From a virus: a stretch of DNA of 33,289 nucleotides. The translations under genes and the position numbers were made by a program. Shown in pieces: positions 6,567 through 33,289 of this stretch (position 1 is the first letter of the stretch; every line of letters starts with the position of its first letter). The stretch lies in UHGV virus genome UHGV-0088025; one strand, written 5' to 3'. Under the pieces are notes generated by a model. It was given only the letters and a program-made list of their open reading frames with translations, searched no databases and had not been told where the DNA came from.

Positions 6567-8642
6567 TTACCAGCCTGTAATGTAGTTATCGCCCGCGTAA
6601 ATATTCAGCCCCATACCATCCTCGGTGACGCGGGAACTGGTCAGACGTAACCCCTCGCCAAGTTCGACGCGCAGCGAGGCTTCCGCATTCACTTTTTGCT
6701 CCTGCGGTTCCTTATCCGTGGCCGTCCACTTCTGATACAGGTCGGTTACAAAACCGCCCAGATACTCCCCGGCGACACTGCCCAGCGTGGCACCGGCAAC
6801 CGTACCCAGCGGTCCGGCAAGGCTGCCAACGGCACCGCCGAGCCATGCACCGGCTGTACTGCCAATTGCGCCTGCTTTTTCATGGGTTGACGCCTGCTCA
6901 TCCATCAGGACGGGGGCAAGCTGGAGTGCCCCCATTACCGGGCCACCCAGACGTGACAACGCACGCCCCGCGCCTTTCCCCATCCAGCCCAGCGCCCCGG
7001 CACCTTTTGTCACAACCCGACCGATCGCACTGCCTGCAAGTTTGTTTCCGATACCGGAAAACCACCCGCCAGCGGCACGCCCGGCATCAGCCAGCTTTCC
7101 GACCGCTCCCGTAACCAGTTGCCCGGCAGCACTGCCTGCAAGCCTGCTCAGAAGACCGGATTTACCGGGTAAAGGTAATGGTGCAGGCCGTGCCGTTACC
7201 GGTACGCCGGGTGGGGGTAATGCCAGAACAGGGCGTGGTGCAGGTAATGCCAGCGGCTGTGGCCCGGACAGCAATAACGGCTGGCGGGGTAACAGGGGCG
7301 TCATGCCTTTGCCTTTCCGGGTGCGACCACCACGGCCACCGCTTCCGTAACCGCCGAACCCGTGAGGCCAGTTAGTGACAAACACACGCTGAATGCCGAT
7401 ACCCTGCAACAGCGTCTCAGACGTCATGGCATCCGGGACCGGCAGACCTGCCTGCCCACGTTTGCGGTTTCGCATCCAGCGCCACATACGACGCCCGGTT
7501 TTAAACGGATAACTGGCAACCTGCCATGAGGGTTTTGCCACGGCCCAGCCTGCTCTCAGGGCTTTATTGGCAAGCCAGACAGACACCAGAACAGCAGCCA
7601 GTTTTTTCAGGCTGACAATATTCTGGTCAACCCATGCCAGCGCATCTTTACCCGGTTTCAGCCAGCGCCATAATTCCTGCGCCGCGATTTTTACCTTTCT
7701 GAACGTGGTCAGGAATTTCTGACCAATGTTTTCTGCCAGTGCGTCCAGCTCCCCGGATTTATCCGCCGCATCGTGCCAGTTAAGCACCCGGCGCATCTCG
7801 TTCTTGATTTCTTCAAAGGGGCCGCTGTTTGCCACCTTCGTGCGAAACTCAAGCAGGTTGCCCTCCATCTGGGCCATCATCCCGTCCCAGGAGTTCATGG
7901 CAGCCGCCTGTGCGCCTTCTGACTGCTCCAGCAGGGTCCGGAATACCGTCAGAATGGCTTTCTTGCCCAGCTTGCCTTTTTCACCCAGCTTACGGATTTT
8001 TTTCTCATCCTTACCCGTTGCATCTGCCAGCACCTTGTAAACGTTGATACCGTAACCGGTCAGCAGGTTGGCGTCCGCCGCCGTGATTTGCTGGCGGGCA
8101 AACATCTGTTTGAACTGTAACGAAGCCCCCTGCGCGGTGGGTAAATCCCAGCCATGCATCGCGCCCTGATTCTGTAGCATGGTGATGAACTGTTTTACCT
8201 GGGCGTCAGTCATGCCAAACGCCGTTGATGTGCGGATTTCCTGCAGAACGCCGCCCAGCCCCCAGGTGGTTTCTTTTGCGTTCTGCTTCGCCCACGCCAT
8301 CATGGCCTGTGCTCTGGCCTTATCGCCGTGATACAGCGAGTTCATGGCGATAATCTGCTGCTCACGCTGGGCGGCGGCACCAATAAACAGTTTATTGGCG
8401 GTGTAACCCACGCCAGCGATACCCAGCGCCCCGGCTGACAGCATTCGGAATGTACGGGTTGACAGTGAACCCATTCTGTCAATGGCACCAGAAACGCGCA
8501 CAACCTCCATACGCAGGGCACGAAGGGAACTTTGTCCGCTACGGGACAGGGCGTTTATCTGGTTCGAATACTCGCGGGAACGCCGGGAAAGATTGCCATT
8601 AAGATCAATAATGACAGACGCCTTTAAGCGTTTCCCGGTCAT
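6567..8642 (-). CDS. Tail tape measure protein (gp42-like)
   Basis: 691-aa ORF with Gly/Ala-rich and Pro-rich low-complexity tracts typical of tape measure proteins; lies between chaperone-like gp41 and N. Confidence 0.85.
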
Positions 8643-9596: not shown

Positions 9597-11096
9597 TTAC
9601 AGAATGAACTGAACTTGTGCCGCGAAAATGCGGAACTGGTTAATCAGATTCGGGCCGCACAGCACATCAAGACGGTCTTTGTCGTCCTTGTTACGTGCCA
9701 CATACAGCTCCTCTTTGAACGTGTCGAAATCCTCGACCAGTCCGGCGTTTTCCCATTCTTCAAACAGTGCCAGCAGCTCCGTTTTGATCACGGATGGCGT
9801 CACCACGGCCTGACCGGTGGCAAAGCGGGTGCCATCACTTGCCAGCTTGTGGTTCGGGAATTTCTGCGTGATGCGGGTTCGCAGCGAATAACGCAGATAA
9901 CTCAGCGTGGCGATGGTATTCACGTTCAGATAAGACGGATCGCTGTCACCGTACTTGTTCGTGCGGTACATCGTGATCATGCGTTCAATCTGCATTTCAC
10001 CACCATCATTCACGTTAAACGTGGAGATGCCGTCAAACAGCAGCGCATTACGTTCTGACCAGGTGAAACGATCCCCCACCGCAGGCGGCATTCTTCCGGG
10101 CAACGTCAGCGTCTGGAGTGGACGCGCCGGGTCGATGGAAAGCGCCTGGCTGGCAACGGCACACAGGGTGGCGGCGTACAGATATGACGGTTCCGGTGCA
10201 CCGGCAATCCCCATACAGGAAATCAGATGGTCATTACGTCTGACACCAAACGTGGAAATATCCCCATACGTGCCGGACAGCACTGTCACGGCAAAGCCAT
10301 CAGCCTGACTGACCGGTCCCCAGCGTTCCTGCAATTCAGTGCGTAACAGATTCAGGTTCGGTTCATCGGTATAGGGCATCACAATATATTTGTATTGCAG
10401 ATCGCCCATTCCCGCGATACTTGCGCTGATATCCGGGTTGATGTATTTCCGGGATTCGGCTTTGAATGCCGTGATAATCCCGTAAGGGGTGGTTTCACCC
10501 GCGTAATAGTTCCAGCGCACATCCACGGCAGATAATGCACCCGTAAATTTTGCAGTCAGAACTATATCTGTAGCGCCGGCATCATCCGGCGTGGTTGAGA
10601 GCAATACTGCCTTCACCGGCAAATCAGGATGACCGTTGATTCGGTCAGTCAGCAGGCCAGCCAGCTTCGATCCCTTGGTACCTGCTGCGACGGATACCGC
10701 CAGTCGCTGACCGGCAATGTAAGTCACAAGCGAGCCGTTTTCGGTTGCCGTTCCTGACAGTGTGATTAAACCGACAGTAGTTTTAGAGATAGTATTACCG
10801 GGGTTTTTCGCCTGCGGAATACACCACAGCTCCGCCACGCGGTTAGCTTTCAGGAATGCATCTGCCATCAGTGCCAGCATGGAACCCTGACCAAACGCCG
10901 CACTGGCCTGTGAGCCGGAACGGATACGGACAGGCACGTCTGGTGCCGCACTGGCCCCCTTATTGCTTTGCCCGAACATCAGCACGCGCTGACGGGGGGC
11001 CGGTGTTCCGCTGACGGCATTACTGTTATCAAATTCGATATACGCCAGAGGAACGCGAACATCTGGCGGGATCGCGTTAAATGAAATATCGCTCAT
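9597..11096 (-). CDS. L: Contractile tail sheath protein L (gp39-like)
   Basis: 499-aa [28 protein letters not shown]... sheath-like; followed by the tube gene. Confidence 0.9.
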
Positions 11097-11102
11097 TTCG
11101 AT

Positions 11103-11333
11103 TTACTCCGTTTTTTTCAGCGCAGCGTCGGTATCATCCGCCGTGTTTTCGGTGCTCCCGACTTCAACCACATCAGTGTTTTCGGTGCTCCCGACTTCAA
11201 CCACATCACCGGCTACAAGGCGACGTATCCAGAAACTGTTACGGGGCTTTTCTTCTCCCTCAGGCGCCAGTAATTCCATCGTGAGCGGGTCACGGATGGT
11301 TTTTCCCTCTGCGGGTTTAATTTTCAGCATCAT
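11103..11333 (-). CDS. Small virion-associated protein (gp38-like) carrying an in-frame 11-aa tandem duplication
   Basis: 76-aa ORF upstream of the sheath gene; contains DVVEVGSTENT-DVVEVGSTENT encoded by a perfect 2x33-bp repeat. Confidence 0.7.
   Translation of the reverse strand: MMLKIKPAEGKTIRDPLTMELLAPEGEEKPRNSFWIRRLVAGDVVEVGSTENTDVVEVGSTENTADDTDAALKKTE
11143..11208. repeat. Perfect tandem direct repeat, 2 x 33 bp (GTGTTTTCGGTGCTCCCGACTTCAACCACATCA)
   Basis: Units 11143-11175 and 11176-11208 are identical on direct reading; in frame within the gp38-like CDS. Confidence 0.95.
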
Positions 11334-11865: not shown

Positions 11866-12290
11866 CAGATAAACCCCTTCTGTTTTCGTGAAAAAACAGG
11901 TGGATCAGACTGAATCTGCACAAGATCCTCTCCCTCCGGAGAGGCTGCCGTCCTGCTTTCCACACCCGGATCTGTTTTGCCATCACGTACCTGTTCCAGC
12001 CAGCGCACCGTGTCCCTGTAAGTTGCGGTGATCTGCTCGGTGGGTTGTGATTCATTCAGATAAAACCAGGCCACCACGCAACACTGCCGTTTCAGCAGTG
12101 AGGGGACGACGGTAAGCGGCAGAACAAAGCGCGCGGCGAGATAGCCATCAATAAAGGCCGAGGCATCTGCCAGTGCCTGTTCTGCCACGGCATCATCCGG
12201 CTGCCCGTCCGCTGTTTTAGGGCGGGTGAGAATATCCAGCCGCGTACGTGTATAGCGGGCGCACAGGTCATTTACCGTCGCGTAATTCAT
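11865..12290 (-). CDS. Hypothetical head-tail joining protein (gp36-like)
   Basis: 141-aa ORF; stop/start junction with neighbours suggests translational coupling. Confidence 0.75.
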   Translation of the reverse strand: MNYATVNDLCARYTRTRLDILTRPKTADGQPDDAVAEQALADASAFIDGYLAARFVLPLTVVPSLLKRQCCVVAWFYLNESQPTEQITATYRDTVRWLEQVRDGKTDPGVESRTAASPEGEDLVQIQSDPPVFSRKQKGFI

Positions 12291-18265: not shown

Positions 18266-19920
18266 TACCAGCCCCCTCGTTCAAACTGGTGATAATCATC
18301 AAAATCATCGTTATCAACATCATCACCACGGTGGCGTGGTGGTAGCGGACGAACGCTGTCCTCGTCGATAACAAAACCATTCATATAAGACGCCCTGACA
18401 GCCATACAGAGCGCCACGGCAAAGTCGCCATGTCGTCGGCCTTTACCACCTTCATCTTTTGTGCGCCCCTTATCAATCTGCGGAATACCTTTGTCCACCT
18501 TGATGTGGAGCAGGTCATCAAGTGTGGTCTGGTGCCGGGCAATCGTGATGTTCTGCGCCTCAAACTCGCCTTTCAGTTTGGGCATCCACTCCTGATACCA
18601 GGATGCGGTCAGATTCACACAGTCGATCATCTCCGGGCCATAAATCAGACGGGCGGCTTCTGCCAGATAACCGCCGTTACCGGTGGCATCAAATGCAGCG
18701 CCGGTAAAACGGGGCAAACGGGACAGAATGAATAAAAGGATTTGTCGCTGCTGGTCATAGGTCACATTACGCAGCTCCACGCGGAAACATTCGCGTTTGC
18801 GTAAGTCAGGCGTGATGGCAAGCGGCACAAACACCGTCAGGTCGCCACGGCGTGCAAAGTCTTCGCCCAGTACGTGTTTATTGAGCGGCGACAGCGCATC
18901 GAGCAACGGGAGCAGCTCCTGTTCACACCAGTCCTGAACGATGCCGTGGCGCATTTGTGGTGTCAGCGATTCAAAATCGTCCGGGGCTTCAAAACGCAGA
19001 ACCGGGATATCCCGCGCGGGTGTCATGGCAGCTTCAATCAGCACGCGTGACAGATAAGCGCCCCCGGATTTTTTAGGAATGCAGCCGTATTCCTCGTCGG
19101 CGCTCTCTTTATTCGGCGCATTCCGGTACAGGCCATCACGCCAGGCTTTTTCCGCTTCCGGCGACCACGGCTGATTCGTGACGTAACAGATACGCCGGTA
19201 CAACCCGTCAGCGATGGCATCATCCAGCGTGATGCGGTGAACGCTGTAATCCTTGCGCCCCTCGCGCGCATCCTGAATGTACTGGTTAAACAGGTTATCG
19301 ACGCCGTTATGTGTCGATATGATGCGCACGCTGGCACCCCACATGTTTAGTGCAAAGGCCGCTTTCAGCAGTTCGTCCAGGGCTTCATGGAATGCCGCCT
19401 CATCAATCACCACGTCCCCCTGCAAACCACGCAGGTTAGACGGACGGCTTGACAGCGCCTGTATCTTAAATCCGCTGTTCGGAAAGCGGATCATGTAGGT
19501 GAGGATTTCTTCTTTTTTGTCGCTGTCCCAGAAGGTCTGCTCCCAGACGTCAGCCTTTGCCAGCTGGTTAAAGGCGCGGGCAAACAGGGCACAGGCGGCG
19601 ATGTATTCCAGCGCCATTTCCTGACGGGAACCCACATAAAAGACGTTGCGACCACCGCGACGCTTCGGCTTTGCGGCCGTCATGACATTGCGGCCCGCTT
19701 CAGCCCATGTCAGACCGGTACGACGGGATTTTTCAGCGATGCAAATCTGGCTTTCATCCTCAAACCAGCGGCGCTGATAGCCCAGAAAAACCGGTTCATT
19801 GCGGGGCTGTGCTTCCCCGATATCGGTCACGATATTCACGCCGAGCAGTCCGGCTTCCTCACGCAGGTTGATTTTGCGGGGCGCATGAAGGGCTTTAAGA
19901 TTGTTTTCTCTGGTGTTCAT
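18265..19920 (-). CDS. Terminase large subunit (gp28-like)
   Basis: Track ORF runs to 20112, but the ATG at 19918-19920 (MNTRENNLKALHAPRK...) has GAGAGGG 4 nt upstream and abuts the stop of the preceding gene; 551 aa. Confidence 0.9.
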   Translation of the reverse strand: MNTRENNLKALHAPRKINLREEAGLLGVNIVTDIGEAQPRNEPVFLGYQRRWFEDESQICIAEKSRRTGLTWAEAGRNVMTAAKPKRRGGRNVFYVGSRQEMALEYIAACALFARAFNQLAKADVWEQTFWDSDKKEEILTYMIRFPNSGFKIQALSSRPSNLRGLQGDVVIDEAAFHEALDELLKAAFALNMWGASVRIISTHNGVDNLFNQYIQDAREGRKDYSVHRITLDDAIADGLYRRICYVTNQPWSPEAEKAWRDGLYRNAPNKESADEEYGCIPKKSGGAYLSRVLIEAAMTPARDIPVLRFEAPDDFESLTPQMRHGIVQDWCEQELLPLLDALSPLNKHVLGEDFARRGDLTVFVPLAITPDLRKRECFRVELRNVTYDQQRQILLFILSRLPRFTGAAFDATGNGGYLAEAARLIYGPEMIDCVNLTASWYQEWMPKLKGEFEAQNITIARHQTTLDDLLHIKVDKGIPQIDKGRTKDEGGKGRRHGDFAVALCMAVRASYMNGFVIDEDSVRPLPPRHRGDDVDNDDFDDYHQFERGGW

Positions 19921-19927
19921 AACCCTC

Positions 19928-20518
19928 TCATGCCTTACCCAGCAGCACATCACGGATACGCTGCTCCAGCTCTTCGCTGATGCCATCCTGCCCGCGCAGT
20001 TCTTCACTGACGGCGTTTGCCGCTTCTTCTGCGAATGCCTGGCGGATTTCTTTCTCGCGCCGGTGGCTGGACATTGCCGTGGATTCCAGACGCTGTGCCG
20101 CCAGCATGGCATTTTTCAGCAGGTCAATATCCACGTCAGATTCCGGGTTTTCGATTTGCCGCATCATGGCCTTAAAAAGCTGGCTGCGGGCCATTTCCAG
20201 AATCAGCTTTGTGGTTTCTCCCATTGGCTTGTCGCCAAGTTCTGCGGTCAGTGCTGACGTCATTTCACGCATCTGTCGCAGGTTATGGCCTACCTGCTCG
20301 ACGTTCGTCGCGTAACGGTTCAGACCGGAACGGGAGAGTTTCATCTCATCCGGCAGGCCTGCGTCTTCAATCAGTGCGTTAATTTCTTCCAGAATGCGGG
20401 CCTGTGGGATCGCTTTATCACGCAGCATTTCATGCAGCGTTTTACGTACGTTTTCCGGCAGTAAATCCACTTTTGAAGCCCGGCCCCGTGTTTTCCTGTC
20501 CATCACGCCTCCTGTCAT
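19928..20518 (-). CDS. gp27-like protein, possible terminase small subunit/DNA-packaging partner
   Basis: 196-aa ORF immediately upstream of large terminase; charged, helical-looking. Confidence 0.75.
   Translation of the reverse strand: MTGGVMDRKTRGRASKVDLLPENVRKTLHEMLRDKAIPQARILEEINALIEDAGLPDEMKLSRSGLNRYATNVEQVGHNLRQMREMTSALTAELGDKPMGETTKLILEMARSQLFKAMMRQIENPESDVDIDLLKNAMLAAQRLESTAMSSHRREKEIRQAFAEEAANAVSEELRGQDGISEELEQRIRDVLLGKA

Positions 20519-32743: not shown

Positions 32744-33289
<546 letters not shown>

What the first reader, a model, noticed from the sequence alone, without database searches (positions are those of the whole stretch)
11143..11208. Perfect 33-bp tandem duplication inside the gp38-like gene
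Two identical 33-bp units create an in-frame repeat DVVEVGSTENT-DVVEVGSTENT near the C-terminus of a small virion-associated protein. Perfect identity implies a recent duplication or a slippage-prone site; copy number may vary among relatives.
Basis: seen in the sequence. Interest (0 to 1): 0.45.

Follow-up and report, generated by a model that had tools for sequence, protein, structure and literature searches.

The report
In-frame duplication in Mu gp38 homolog
A real, inherited 33-base tandem duplication adds 11 amino acids to the floppy tail of a small, function-unknown protein of a Mu-like E. coli prophage; it marks one phage lineage, appears harmless, and is an ordinary length polymorphism.

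Summary
Window 11143-11208 holds two perfect 33-bp units. They lie in frame in the minus-strand gene 11103-11333, a 76-aa Mu gp38 homolog (Pfam DUF2635), and give DVVEVGSTENT twice (residues 43-53 and 54-64).

Mu, D108, SfMu, the Yersinia Mu-like phages and all 44 complete E. coli genomes with this locus have one copy, so two copies is the derived state. It is not an assembly artefact: the exact protein occurs on about 120 E. coli contigs. Carriers differ by up to 1% in flanking DNA and sit at five or more different chromosomal sites, so phages with this allele have kept lysogenising.

Copy number does vary. Two metagenome contigs encode the one-copy form; the one retrieved is otherwise identical to the window over 6.2 kb.

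The duplication lies where the conserved core ends and a non-conserved, predicted-disordered tail begins. That tail is 9-81 residues long across the family. The simplest reading is a near-neutral extension of the tail.

It replaces the conserved basic C-terminus PKKRSKSK with LKKTE and removes the ATGA overlap with the sheath gene.

gp38's function and virion association remain unproven. Interest is low.

The parts
11103..11333 (-). Mu gp38 homolog (DUF2635), 76 aa. It has a conserved core (about residues 1-48) and a variable tail that carries the duplication.
   Evidence: ORF. Pfam PF10948 E = 6.7e-22 over residues 5-48. PHROG 208, unknown function. 77% identical to Mu Mup38. AF2 model pLDDT about 87 for residues 1-48 and below 50 for 50-64.
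11176..11208 (-). Repeat copy 1 in coding direction (residues 43-53, DVVEVGSTENT). Its VVE is modelled as the last beta-strand of the core.
   Evidence: Strand E44-46 in the AF2 model.
11143..11175 (-). Repeat copy 2 in coding direction (residues 54-64), predicted disordered. Which of the two copies is the new one cannot be told, since they are identical.
   Evidence: pLDDT below 50 for residues 50-55 and 57-64.
11111..11119 (-). A7 run (T7 on the + strand, 11111-11117) plus the adjacent C-to-T change (11119). All one-copy relatives have CCG-A6. The extra A shifts the frame, so APKKRSKSK* becomes ALKKTE*.
   Evidence: Alignment A1. A-run counts in all loci. Translations.
11094..11109 (-). Junction with the sheath gene. 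The gp38 stop TAA (11103-11105) now lies 6 nt upstream of the L start ATG (11094-11096) and directly after the GGAG ribosome-binding site. In Mu the stop and start overlap as ATGA.
   Evidence: Mu annotation of the RBS and the sequenced L N-terminus.

Best explanation
This is a lineage-specific length polymorphism. A single 33-bp in-frame tandem duplication arose in the gp38 (DUF2635) gene of one sub-lineage of E. coli Mu-like phages. The cause was probably a replication or recombination error, and there is no junction microhomology. The duplication has been inherited ever since. It lies exactly where the conserved core ends (the GDVVEV strand) and the non-conserved, low-complexity, predicted-disordered C-terminal tail begins. 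The first DVVEV probably still completes the fold, and the extra 11 residues simply lengthen the tail. The effect is probably neutral or nearly so. Because the two units are identical direct repeats, one can be lost again by slippage or recombination, which would account for the rare one-copy variant on an otherwise identical backbone. Shown: the duplication, its derived status, its inheritance, its presence in mobile phages, and the variability of the tail. Inferred: neutrality, which copy folds, and loss by slippage.
For: Derived state: one copy in 14 phage records and in 44 of 44 complete E. coli genomes.

Real and inherited: the exact 76-aa protein is on 102 contigs, and the same protein without the first Met is on 19 more. 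Two IMG/VR contigs also carry it. Thirteen fetched E. coli loci all have two exact copies plus A7, with 0 to 64 mismatches per 6231 bp against the window.

Compatible with a working phage: carriers have four different right-end host junctions, and the window's copy is inserted in nadC. The structural ORFs have Mu-like sizes.

Copy-number variation within the lineage: P0023 and locus L010 have one copy with 0 mismatches over 6.2 kb. P0024 and locus L011 have two copies with the ancestral A6 end.

The site tolerates insertions: across 172 family proteins the tail after the GDV motif is 9-81 residues long (median 29) and is not conserved. Other members have their own tail repeats, PKEEKAA three times and ERRAK twice.

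Structure model: the core is confident and the tail is disordered. The predicted accessibility of the sheath-gene ribosome-binding site is the same in all four haplotypes, 0.30-0.34.

The same lineage also shows a separate perfect 45-bp in-frame tandem duplication in the tape-measure gene of some members, so this class of mutation recurs there.
Against: Neutrality was not tested. The duplicated segment includes the conserved DVVEV strand, not only linker, so a structural effect is possible. The duplication is almost always found together with loss of the conserved basic C-terminus, so the two changes might be functionally linked. The one-copy contigs come from metagenome assemblies, where a 66-bp tandem repeat could in principle be collapsed by the assembler. 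gp38 may be dispensable; in that case phage viability says nothing about whether the altered protein still works.
Confidence: 0.82

Rival explanations
1. Adaptive change. The longer tail, or the second DVVEV strand, was selected together with replacement of the basic C-terminus. Possible advantages include tuning an interaction with the sheath or terminator during tail assembly, or escaping a host defence that recognises this protein.
For: The allele is common within its lineage (about 120 contigs) and spread across five or more insertion sites. The duplication and the C-terminal frameshift are nearly always linked. The DUF2635 gene always sits directly upstream of the sheath gene in diverse myoviruses, which suggests a sheath-related role.
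Against: There is no functional data. The tail is hypervariable in length and sequence across the family, as expected for a weakly constrained region. The two changes also occur separately (P0023, P0024). Linkage of sites 60 bp apart is expected from common descent alone.
Confidence: 0.1
2. Gene decay. gp38 is being lost in a defective prophage, and the duplication and frameshift are early pseudogenising lesions.
For: There are two lesions within 100 bp. The frameshift removes the conserved KKRSKSK end and the ATGA coupling with the sheath gene.
Against: The ORF stays open, and the core is intact and matches Pfam at E = 7e-22. All neighbouring structural ORFs have Mu-like sizes. Carriers occupy five or more insertion sites, which requires transposition and most simply infection after the allele arose. 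Phage-length contigs of 36.9 kb exist.
Confidence: 0.05
3. Assembly or sequencing artefact in the source record.
For: Tandem repeats and homopolymers are classic error sites, and no reads were available here.
Against: The identical allele (both copies plus A7) appears in many independent NCBI, IMG and ENA assemblies from different projects and strains. A 66-bp repeat is shorter than ordinary reads.
Confidence: 0.01
4. Contingency locus. The repeat is a rapidly switching copy-number tract that the phage uses as a phase-variable switch.
For: Both one-copy and two-copy states exist on an identical backbone.
Against: Only two states are seen. No three-copy protein appears among the members of the 90% cluster or in the DNA scans. 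The changes are in frame, the unit is long (33 bp), and 15 of 15 fetched carriers of the A7 allele have exactly two copies.
Confidence: 0.02

Closest known systems
Bacteriophage Mu gp38 (Mup38, NP_050642.1) and D108 gp38; Pfam DUF2635 (PF10948); PHROG 208
   Same: Same gene position between gp37 (tail terminator) and L (sheath). About 77% protein identity. Same conserved core (W35, RR, GDV motif) and an acidic linker.
   Different: The window protein has DVVEVGSTENT twice, giving 76 aa against 67-68. It ends in LKKTE instead of PKKRSKSK because of an extra A. Its stop codon no longer overlaps the L start.
Other length variants of DUF2635 tails (for example P0013 at 75 aa, P0016 at 76 aa, P0009 at 79 aa, P0102 with PKEEKAA three times, P0159 with ERRAK twice)
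   Same: The length change falls after the GDVVEV motif in a low-complexity charged tail. Some variants clearly arose by internal repetition.
   Different: Those tails are diverged and contain no duplicated copy of the core's last strand. Here the copies are still perfect and include DVVEV.
45-bp in-frame tandem duplication in the tape-measure gene of sister prophages (L029, L014)
   Same: Same prophage lineage and same class of event: a perfect, in-frame, two-copy tandem duplication inside a tail-module gene.
   Different: Different gene. It has 4-bp junction microhomology (CACG), whereas the gp38 duplication has none. The window carries the one-copy state there.
Sheath terminator or tail completion proteins (T4 gp15 type), the label given to Mu_38 in AF083977.1
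   Same: Only the gene neighbourhood next to the terminator and sheath genes, and the database label 'putative sheath terminator protein'.
   Different: No sequence or fold similarity was found. In the Mu virion the gp37 hexamer caps both tube and sheath, and gp38 was not resolved.

Membership tests
DUF2635 / Mu gp38 family (PF10948) | Match to the Pfam profile above the gathering score | tested here: met
   77.4 bits against a cut-off of 26.6, E = 6.7e-22, residues 5-48 on profile positions 1-44 of 46.
DUF2635 / Mu gp38 family (PF10948) | Small protein encoded directly upstream of the contractile-tail sheath gene | tested here: met
   The gene at 11103-11333 ends 6 nt before the sheath ORF 9597-11096. 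The same arrangement is seen in Mu, D108, SfMu, SfV, SfI, SfII and phiNP.
DUF2635 / Mu gp38 family (PF10948) | Conserved core residues (P7, D15-P16, G26, W35, R37-R38, G42, V44) | tested here: met
   All are present in the window protein. They are invariant or at least 90% conserved in the 92-sequence alignment A2.
DUF2635 / Mu gp38 family (PF10948) | Basic C-terminal end (KKRSKSK) typical of the close Mu-group members | tested here: not met
   It is replaced by LKKTE through the A7 frameshift. This feature does not define the wider family: only 76 of 172 tails have 3 or more K/R in the last 8 residues.
Sheath terminator / tail completion protein | Sequence or fold similarity to a solved terminator or completion protein | tested here: not met
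   No PDB sequence hit at E <= 1. The best Foldseek PDB hit has E = 0.9 and none is a tail protein.
Sheath terminator / tail completion protein | Located at the top of the sheath in the virion | not testable with these tools
   The Mu cryo-EM study did not resolve gp38, and gp37 caps both sheath and tube (PMC11915804).
Phase-variable contingency repeat | Many copies of a short unit, with frequent gain and loss that switches expression | tested here: not met
   Two copies of a 33-bp unit, in frame. Only one-copy and two-copy states were seen among the 4 cluster members (123 contigs) and in the DNA scans.

The most novel reading that the evidence does not exclude
The duplication and the neighbouring A7 tract could together form a functional re-design of gp38 rather than drift. 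For example, transcriptional slippage on A7 might make a mixture of LKKTE-ended and ancestral KKRSKSK-ended proteins and restore coupling to sheath translation in a fraction of messages. The doubled DVVEV strand might alter how gp38 engages the sheath or terminator, or might evade a host defence. If so, this lineage would be a natural experiment on the role of an uncharacterised protein that is conserved next to sheath genes.
Probability: 0.05. Interest if true: 0.45.

Novelty: new member of a known kind. Interest (0 to 1): 0.12.

Why it matters
It matters little on its own. It is a natural 11-residue insertion, plus a natural replacement of the basic C-terminus, in a protein of unknown function that is conserved next to sheath genes. 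Both changes are evidently compatible with phage spread. That is useful as a tolerance map if someone studies gp38/DUF2635, for example when choosing where to place a tag. The 33-bp junction is also a clean marker for tracking this Mu-like lineage in E. coli genomes. It does not open a new question.

Tried and rejected
- **Assembly artefact:** rejected, because the allele recurs in about 120 contigs from independent sources.
- **Ancestral two-copy state:** rejected, because every outgroup has one copy.
- **DNA-level role of the repeat:** there are no meaningful inverted repeats or other local repeats around it. Mu's known late promoters are not at this position; that statement rests on general knowledge of Mu and was not tested here.
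- **mRNA structure effect on sheath translation:** the predicted ribosome-binding-site accessibility is the same in all four haplotypes.
- **Function by homology:** there is no PDB sequence hit, no significant fold hit in the PDB, and only weak hits to uncharacterised phage proteins in BFVD. A weak hit to B. subtilis YqbF (E = 1.6) was not pursued.
- **Literature:** nothing on DUF2635, Mup38 or HI1510 function.
- **Junction scans:** GTDB species representatives and JGI metagenomes gave nothing.
- **Linking insertion sites through the repressor gene:** failed, because that protein is shared by thousands of prophages. The gene N protein worked instead.
- **Order of the two mutations:** not resolved, because all four haplotype combinations exist.

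Full report
**Observation.** Tandem Repeats Finder reports one strong tandem repeat in the window: 11143-11208, period 33, 2.0 copies, 100% identity, score 132. The repeat finder gives the same two units. The repeat lies in the minus-strand ORF 11103-11333 (76 aa) and is in frame. It produces DVVEVGSTENT twice, at residues 43-53 and 54-64. The unit is offset by one base from the codon phase, so the final Thr is ACT in the first copy and ACG in the second. No microhomology flanks the junction; this was read directly from the sequence.

**What the gene is.** The ORF matches Pfam DUF2635 (PF10948, E = 6.7e-22, residues 5-48). It sits between homologs of Mu gp37 and the tail sheath L, followed by the tube protein. 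It is the homolog of Mu gp38, about 77% identical. The window as a whole is a Mu-like prophage in reverse orientation, with ORFs of Mu-like size from the repressor to gp48. Its left end...CAAGTGAATCAATACA, stops at 32915. The remaining 374 bases are the interior of nadC. This is therefore an integrated E. coli prophage that interrupts nadC.

**Derived or ancestral.** All 14 phage records that match the region span 33-34 fewer bases than the window. These include Mu, D108, SfMu, Mu_3F6, PhiR68_1 and five Yersinia phages. A six-sequence alignment shows a single clean 33-column gap in every relative. All 44 complete E. coli genomes (of 5426) that carry the locus also have one copy. A 102-bp query spanning both copies matches a 69-bp span in each of them. 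One copy is therefore ancestral and two copies is derived.

**Artefact or real allele.** The exact 76-aa protein (P0001) is recorded on 102 contigs, and the same protein lacking the first Met (P0022) on 19 more. Both are named as E. coli by NCBI. Two IMG/VR contigs carry the junction. Five loci fetched through P0001 and eight fetched through the lineage-specific gene N protein all contain two exact copies. Over 6231 bp around the gene they differ from the window at 0, 0, 1, 2, 14 and 64 positions. The allele is therefore inherited across a lineage with up to about 1% divergence. At that divergence fewer than one substitution is expected in 66 bp, so the perfect identity of the copies needs no special explanation.

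**Mobility of the carriers.** The right-end host junctions of four carriers are all different: |GGCAATTAGG, |CCTCGCTAAG, |AACGGCGTGC and |CCCGGGTTTT. Their neighbouring host genes also differ (Usp, SBP_bac_5, PpnN). The window's copy is in nadC, which is a fifth site. Mu integrates by near-random transposition. Several insertion sites among descendants of one allele mean the phage went on lysogenising after acquiring it. This argues against a lethal or decaying gene. It would also be compatible with gp38 being dispensable.

**Copy-number variation inside the lineage.** The same 90% cluster holds P0023 (65 aa; one copy; shifted C-terminus; 2 metagenome contigs) and P0024 (79 aa; two copies; ancestral C-terminus; 1 contig). 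Locus L010, which encodes P0023, is identical to the window over 6.2 kb apart from the 33-bp gap. Locus L011, which encodes P0024, has two exact copies with CCG-A6 and 26 mismatches in 1264 bp. Twenty-two of those mismatches lie in one 133-bp patch that looks recombinational. All four combinations of copy number and C-terminus therefore exist. At least one reversal or recombination must have occurred. Loss of one unit between identical direct repeats is the simplest candidate, but assembler collapse in the metagenomes cannot be excluded without reads. No three-copy form appeared among the cluster members or in DNA scans of IMG/VR, GTDB representatives and JGI metagenomes.

Just 3' of the repeat in the coding direction, every one-copy relative reads GCG CCG AAA AAA CGG AGT AAA TCG AAA TGA. 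The window reads GCG CTG AAA AAA ACG GAG TAA. This is a C-to-T change plus an extra A (A6 to A7; T7 at window 11111-11117). It replaces the conserved basic end APKKRSKSK with ALKKTE. It also moves the stop from the ATGA overlap with the sheath start to a TAA 6 nt upstream, immediately after the GGAG ribosome-binding site. As a result gp38 is in the same frame as L. All 15 fetched two-copy E. coli and IMG loci have A7. The predicted accessibility of the L ribosome-binding site is unchanged across the four haplotypes, at 0.30-0.34.

**Where the duplication falls in the protein.** A full HMMER search found 479 representatives. Their matches cover only about residues 3-50 of the query. In 172 family proteins the segment after the GDV motif is 9-81 residues long (median 29). 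It is not conserved and is rich in charged residues. Several members have their own short tail repeats, such as PKEEKAA three times and ERRAK twice. An AlphaFold2 model built on 92 sequences is confident for residues 1-48 (pLDDT about 87). Its elements are strands 2-7 and 27-30, helix 33-41 and strand 44-46. pLDDT falls below 50 for residues 50-64. The first DVVEV is thus modelled as the last strand of the core, and the second copy lies in the disordered tail. The duplication straddles the boundary between core and tail, and its net effect is most simply an 11-residue longer tail.

**Function of gp38.** The function remains unknown. There is no PDB sequence hit, no significant fold hit, PHROG 208 is of unknown function, and no paper mentions DUF2635. 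GenBank AF083977.1 labels the protein 'putative sheath terminator protein' without giving evidence. The 2025 cryo-EM study of Mu found that the gp37 hexamer caps both tube and sheath. It lists gp38 only as 'probably structural' and unresolved (PMC11915804). The one solid clue is conserved synteny directly upstream of sheath genes in diverse myoviruses.

**Verdict.** The feature is an ordinary, probably near-neutral, lineage-marking in-frame tandem duplication in the variable tail of a known but uncharacterised phage protein family. A second perfect in-frame tandem duplication, 45 bp in the tape-measure gene, segregates in the same lineage, which shows that such events are routine here. Interest is low. 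The only mildly notable points are the linked loss of the conserved basic C-terminus and the evidence that phages carrying both changes remain mobile.

Noticed in passing
window 11111-11119 (minus-strand gene 11103-11333): An extra A (A6 to A7) plus a C-to-T change just before the gp38 stop codon. It shifts the C-terminus from the conserved APKKRSKSK to ALKKTE, removes the ATGA stop/start overlap with the sheath gene, and puts gp38 in the same frame as L (TAA ATC GAA ATG). It is present in all 15 fetched two-copy E. coli and IMG loci and absent from Mu, D108, SfMu and the complete E. coli genomes.
   Followed up: yes
window about 7193-7237 (tape-measure gene 6567-8642, minus strand); L029 7876-9996: Sister prophages (L029, L014) carry a perfect 45-bp in-frame tandem duplication in the tape-measure gene (706 aa against 691) with no other mismatch in 2076 bp. 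The window has one copy. The junction shows 4-bp microhomology (CACG). A longer tape measure would be expected to give a slightly longer tail.
   Followed up: partly
window 32915-33289: The prophage left end (...CAAGTGAATCAATACA) stops at 32915. The flanking 374 bases are the interior of nadC (TIGR00078 positions 28-149, E = 1e-45). The prophage therefore interrupts nadC, which would be expected to make the host require nicotinic acid.
   Followed up: partly
L028, L029, L031 about 19800-20358 versus L030 about 19550-20506: The right end of the lineage is mosaic. L030 has gin, com and mom and a Mu-type terminus (...GCCGCTTCA). L028, L029 and L031 have a 148-aa ORF with no Pfam match in place of com/mom, and a different terminus (...GCCGGCTCA). 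The tail-fibre genes also differ in length (488, 500 and 507 aa).
   Followed up: no
L011 and L013, segment positions 2310-2442 (= window about 11892-12024, gp36 homolog): Substitutions are clustered: 22 of the 26 mismatches in L011 fall in a 133-bp patch, and 4 of those positions are also changed in L013. This suggests a short recombination tract within the gp36 homolog, close to its junction with gp37.
   Followed up: no
L010 (ENA ERZ28590838 scaffold, 36,926 bp) and L008 (IMG/VR contig, 36,967 bp): These contigs are about the length of a whole Mu genome. That is what an assembler produces when a transposing or multi-site phage breaks the assembly graph at its ends, so it may hint at active replication in those samples.
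   Followed up: no
P0031 (4104 aa) and P0145 (1056 aa): Two very long proteins matched the 76-aa query through 10 and 6 separate stretches. These are probably low-complexity or repeat matches to the acidic tail rather than true DUF2635 homology.
   Followed up: no
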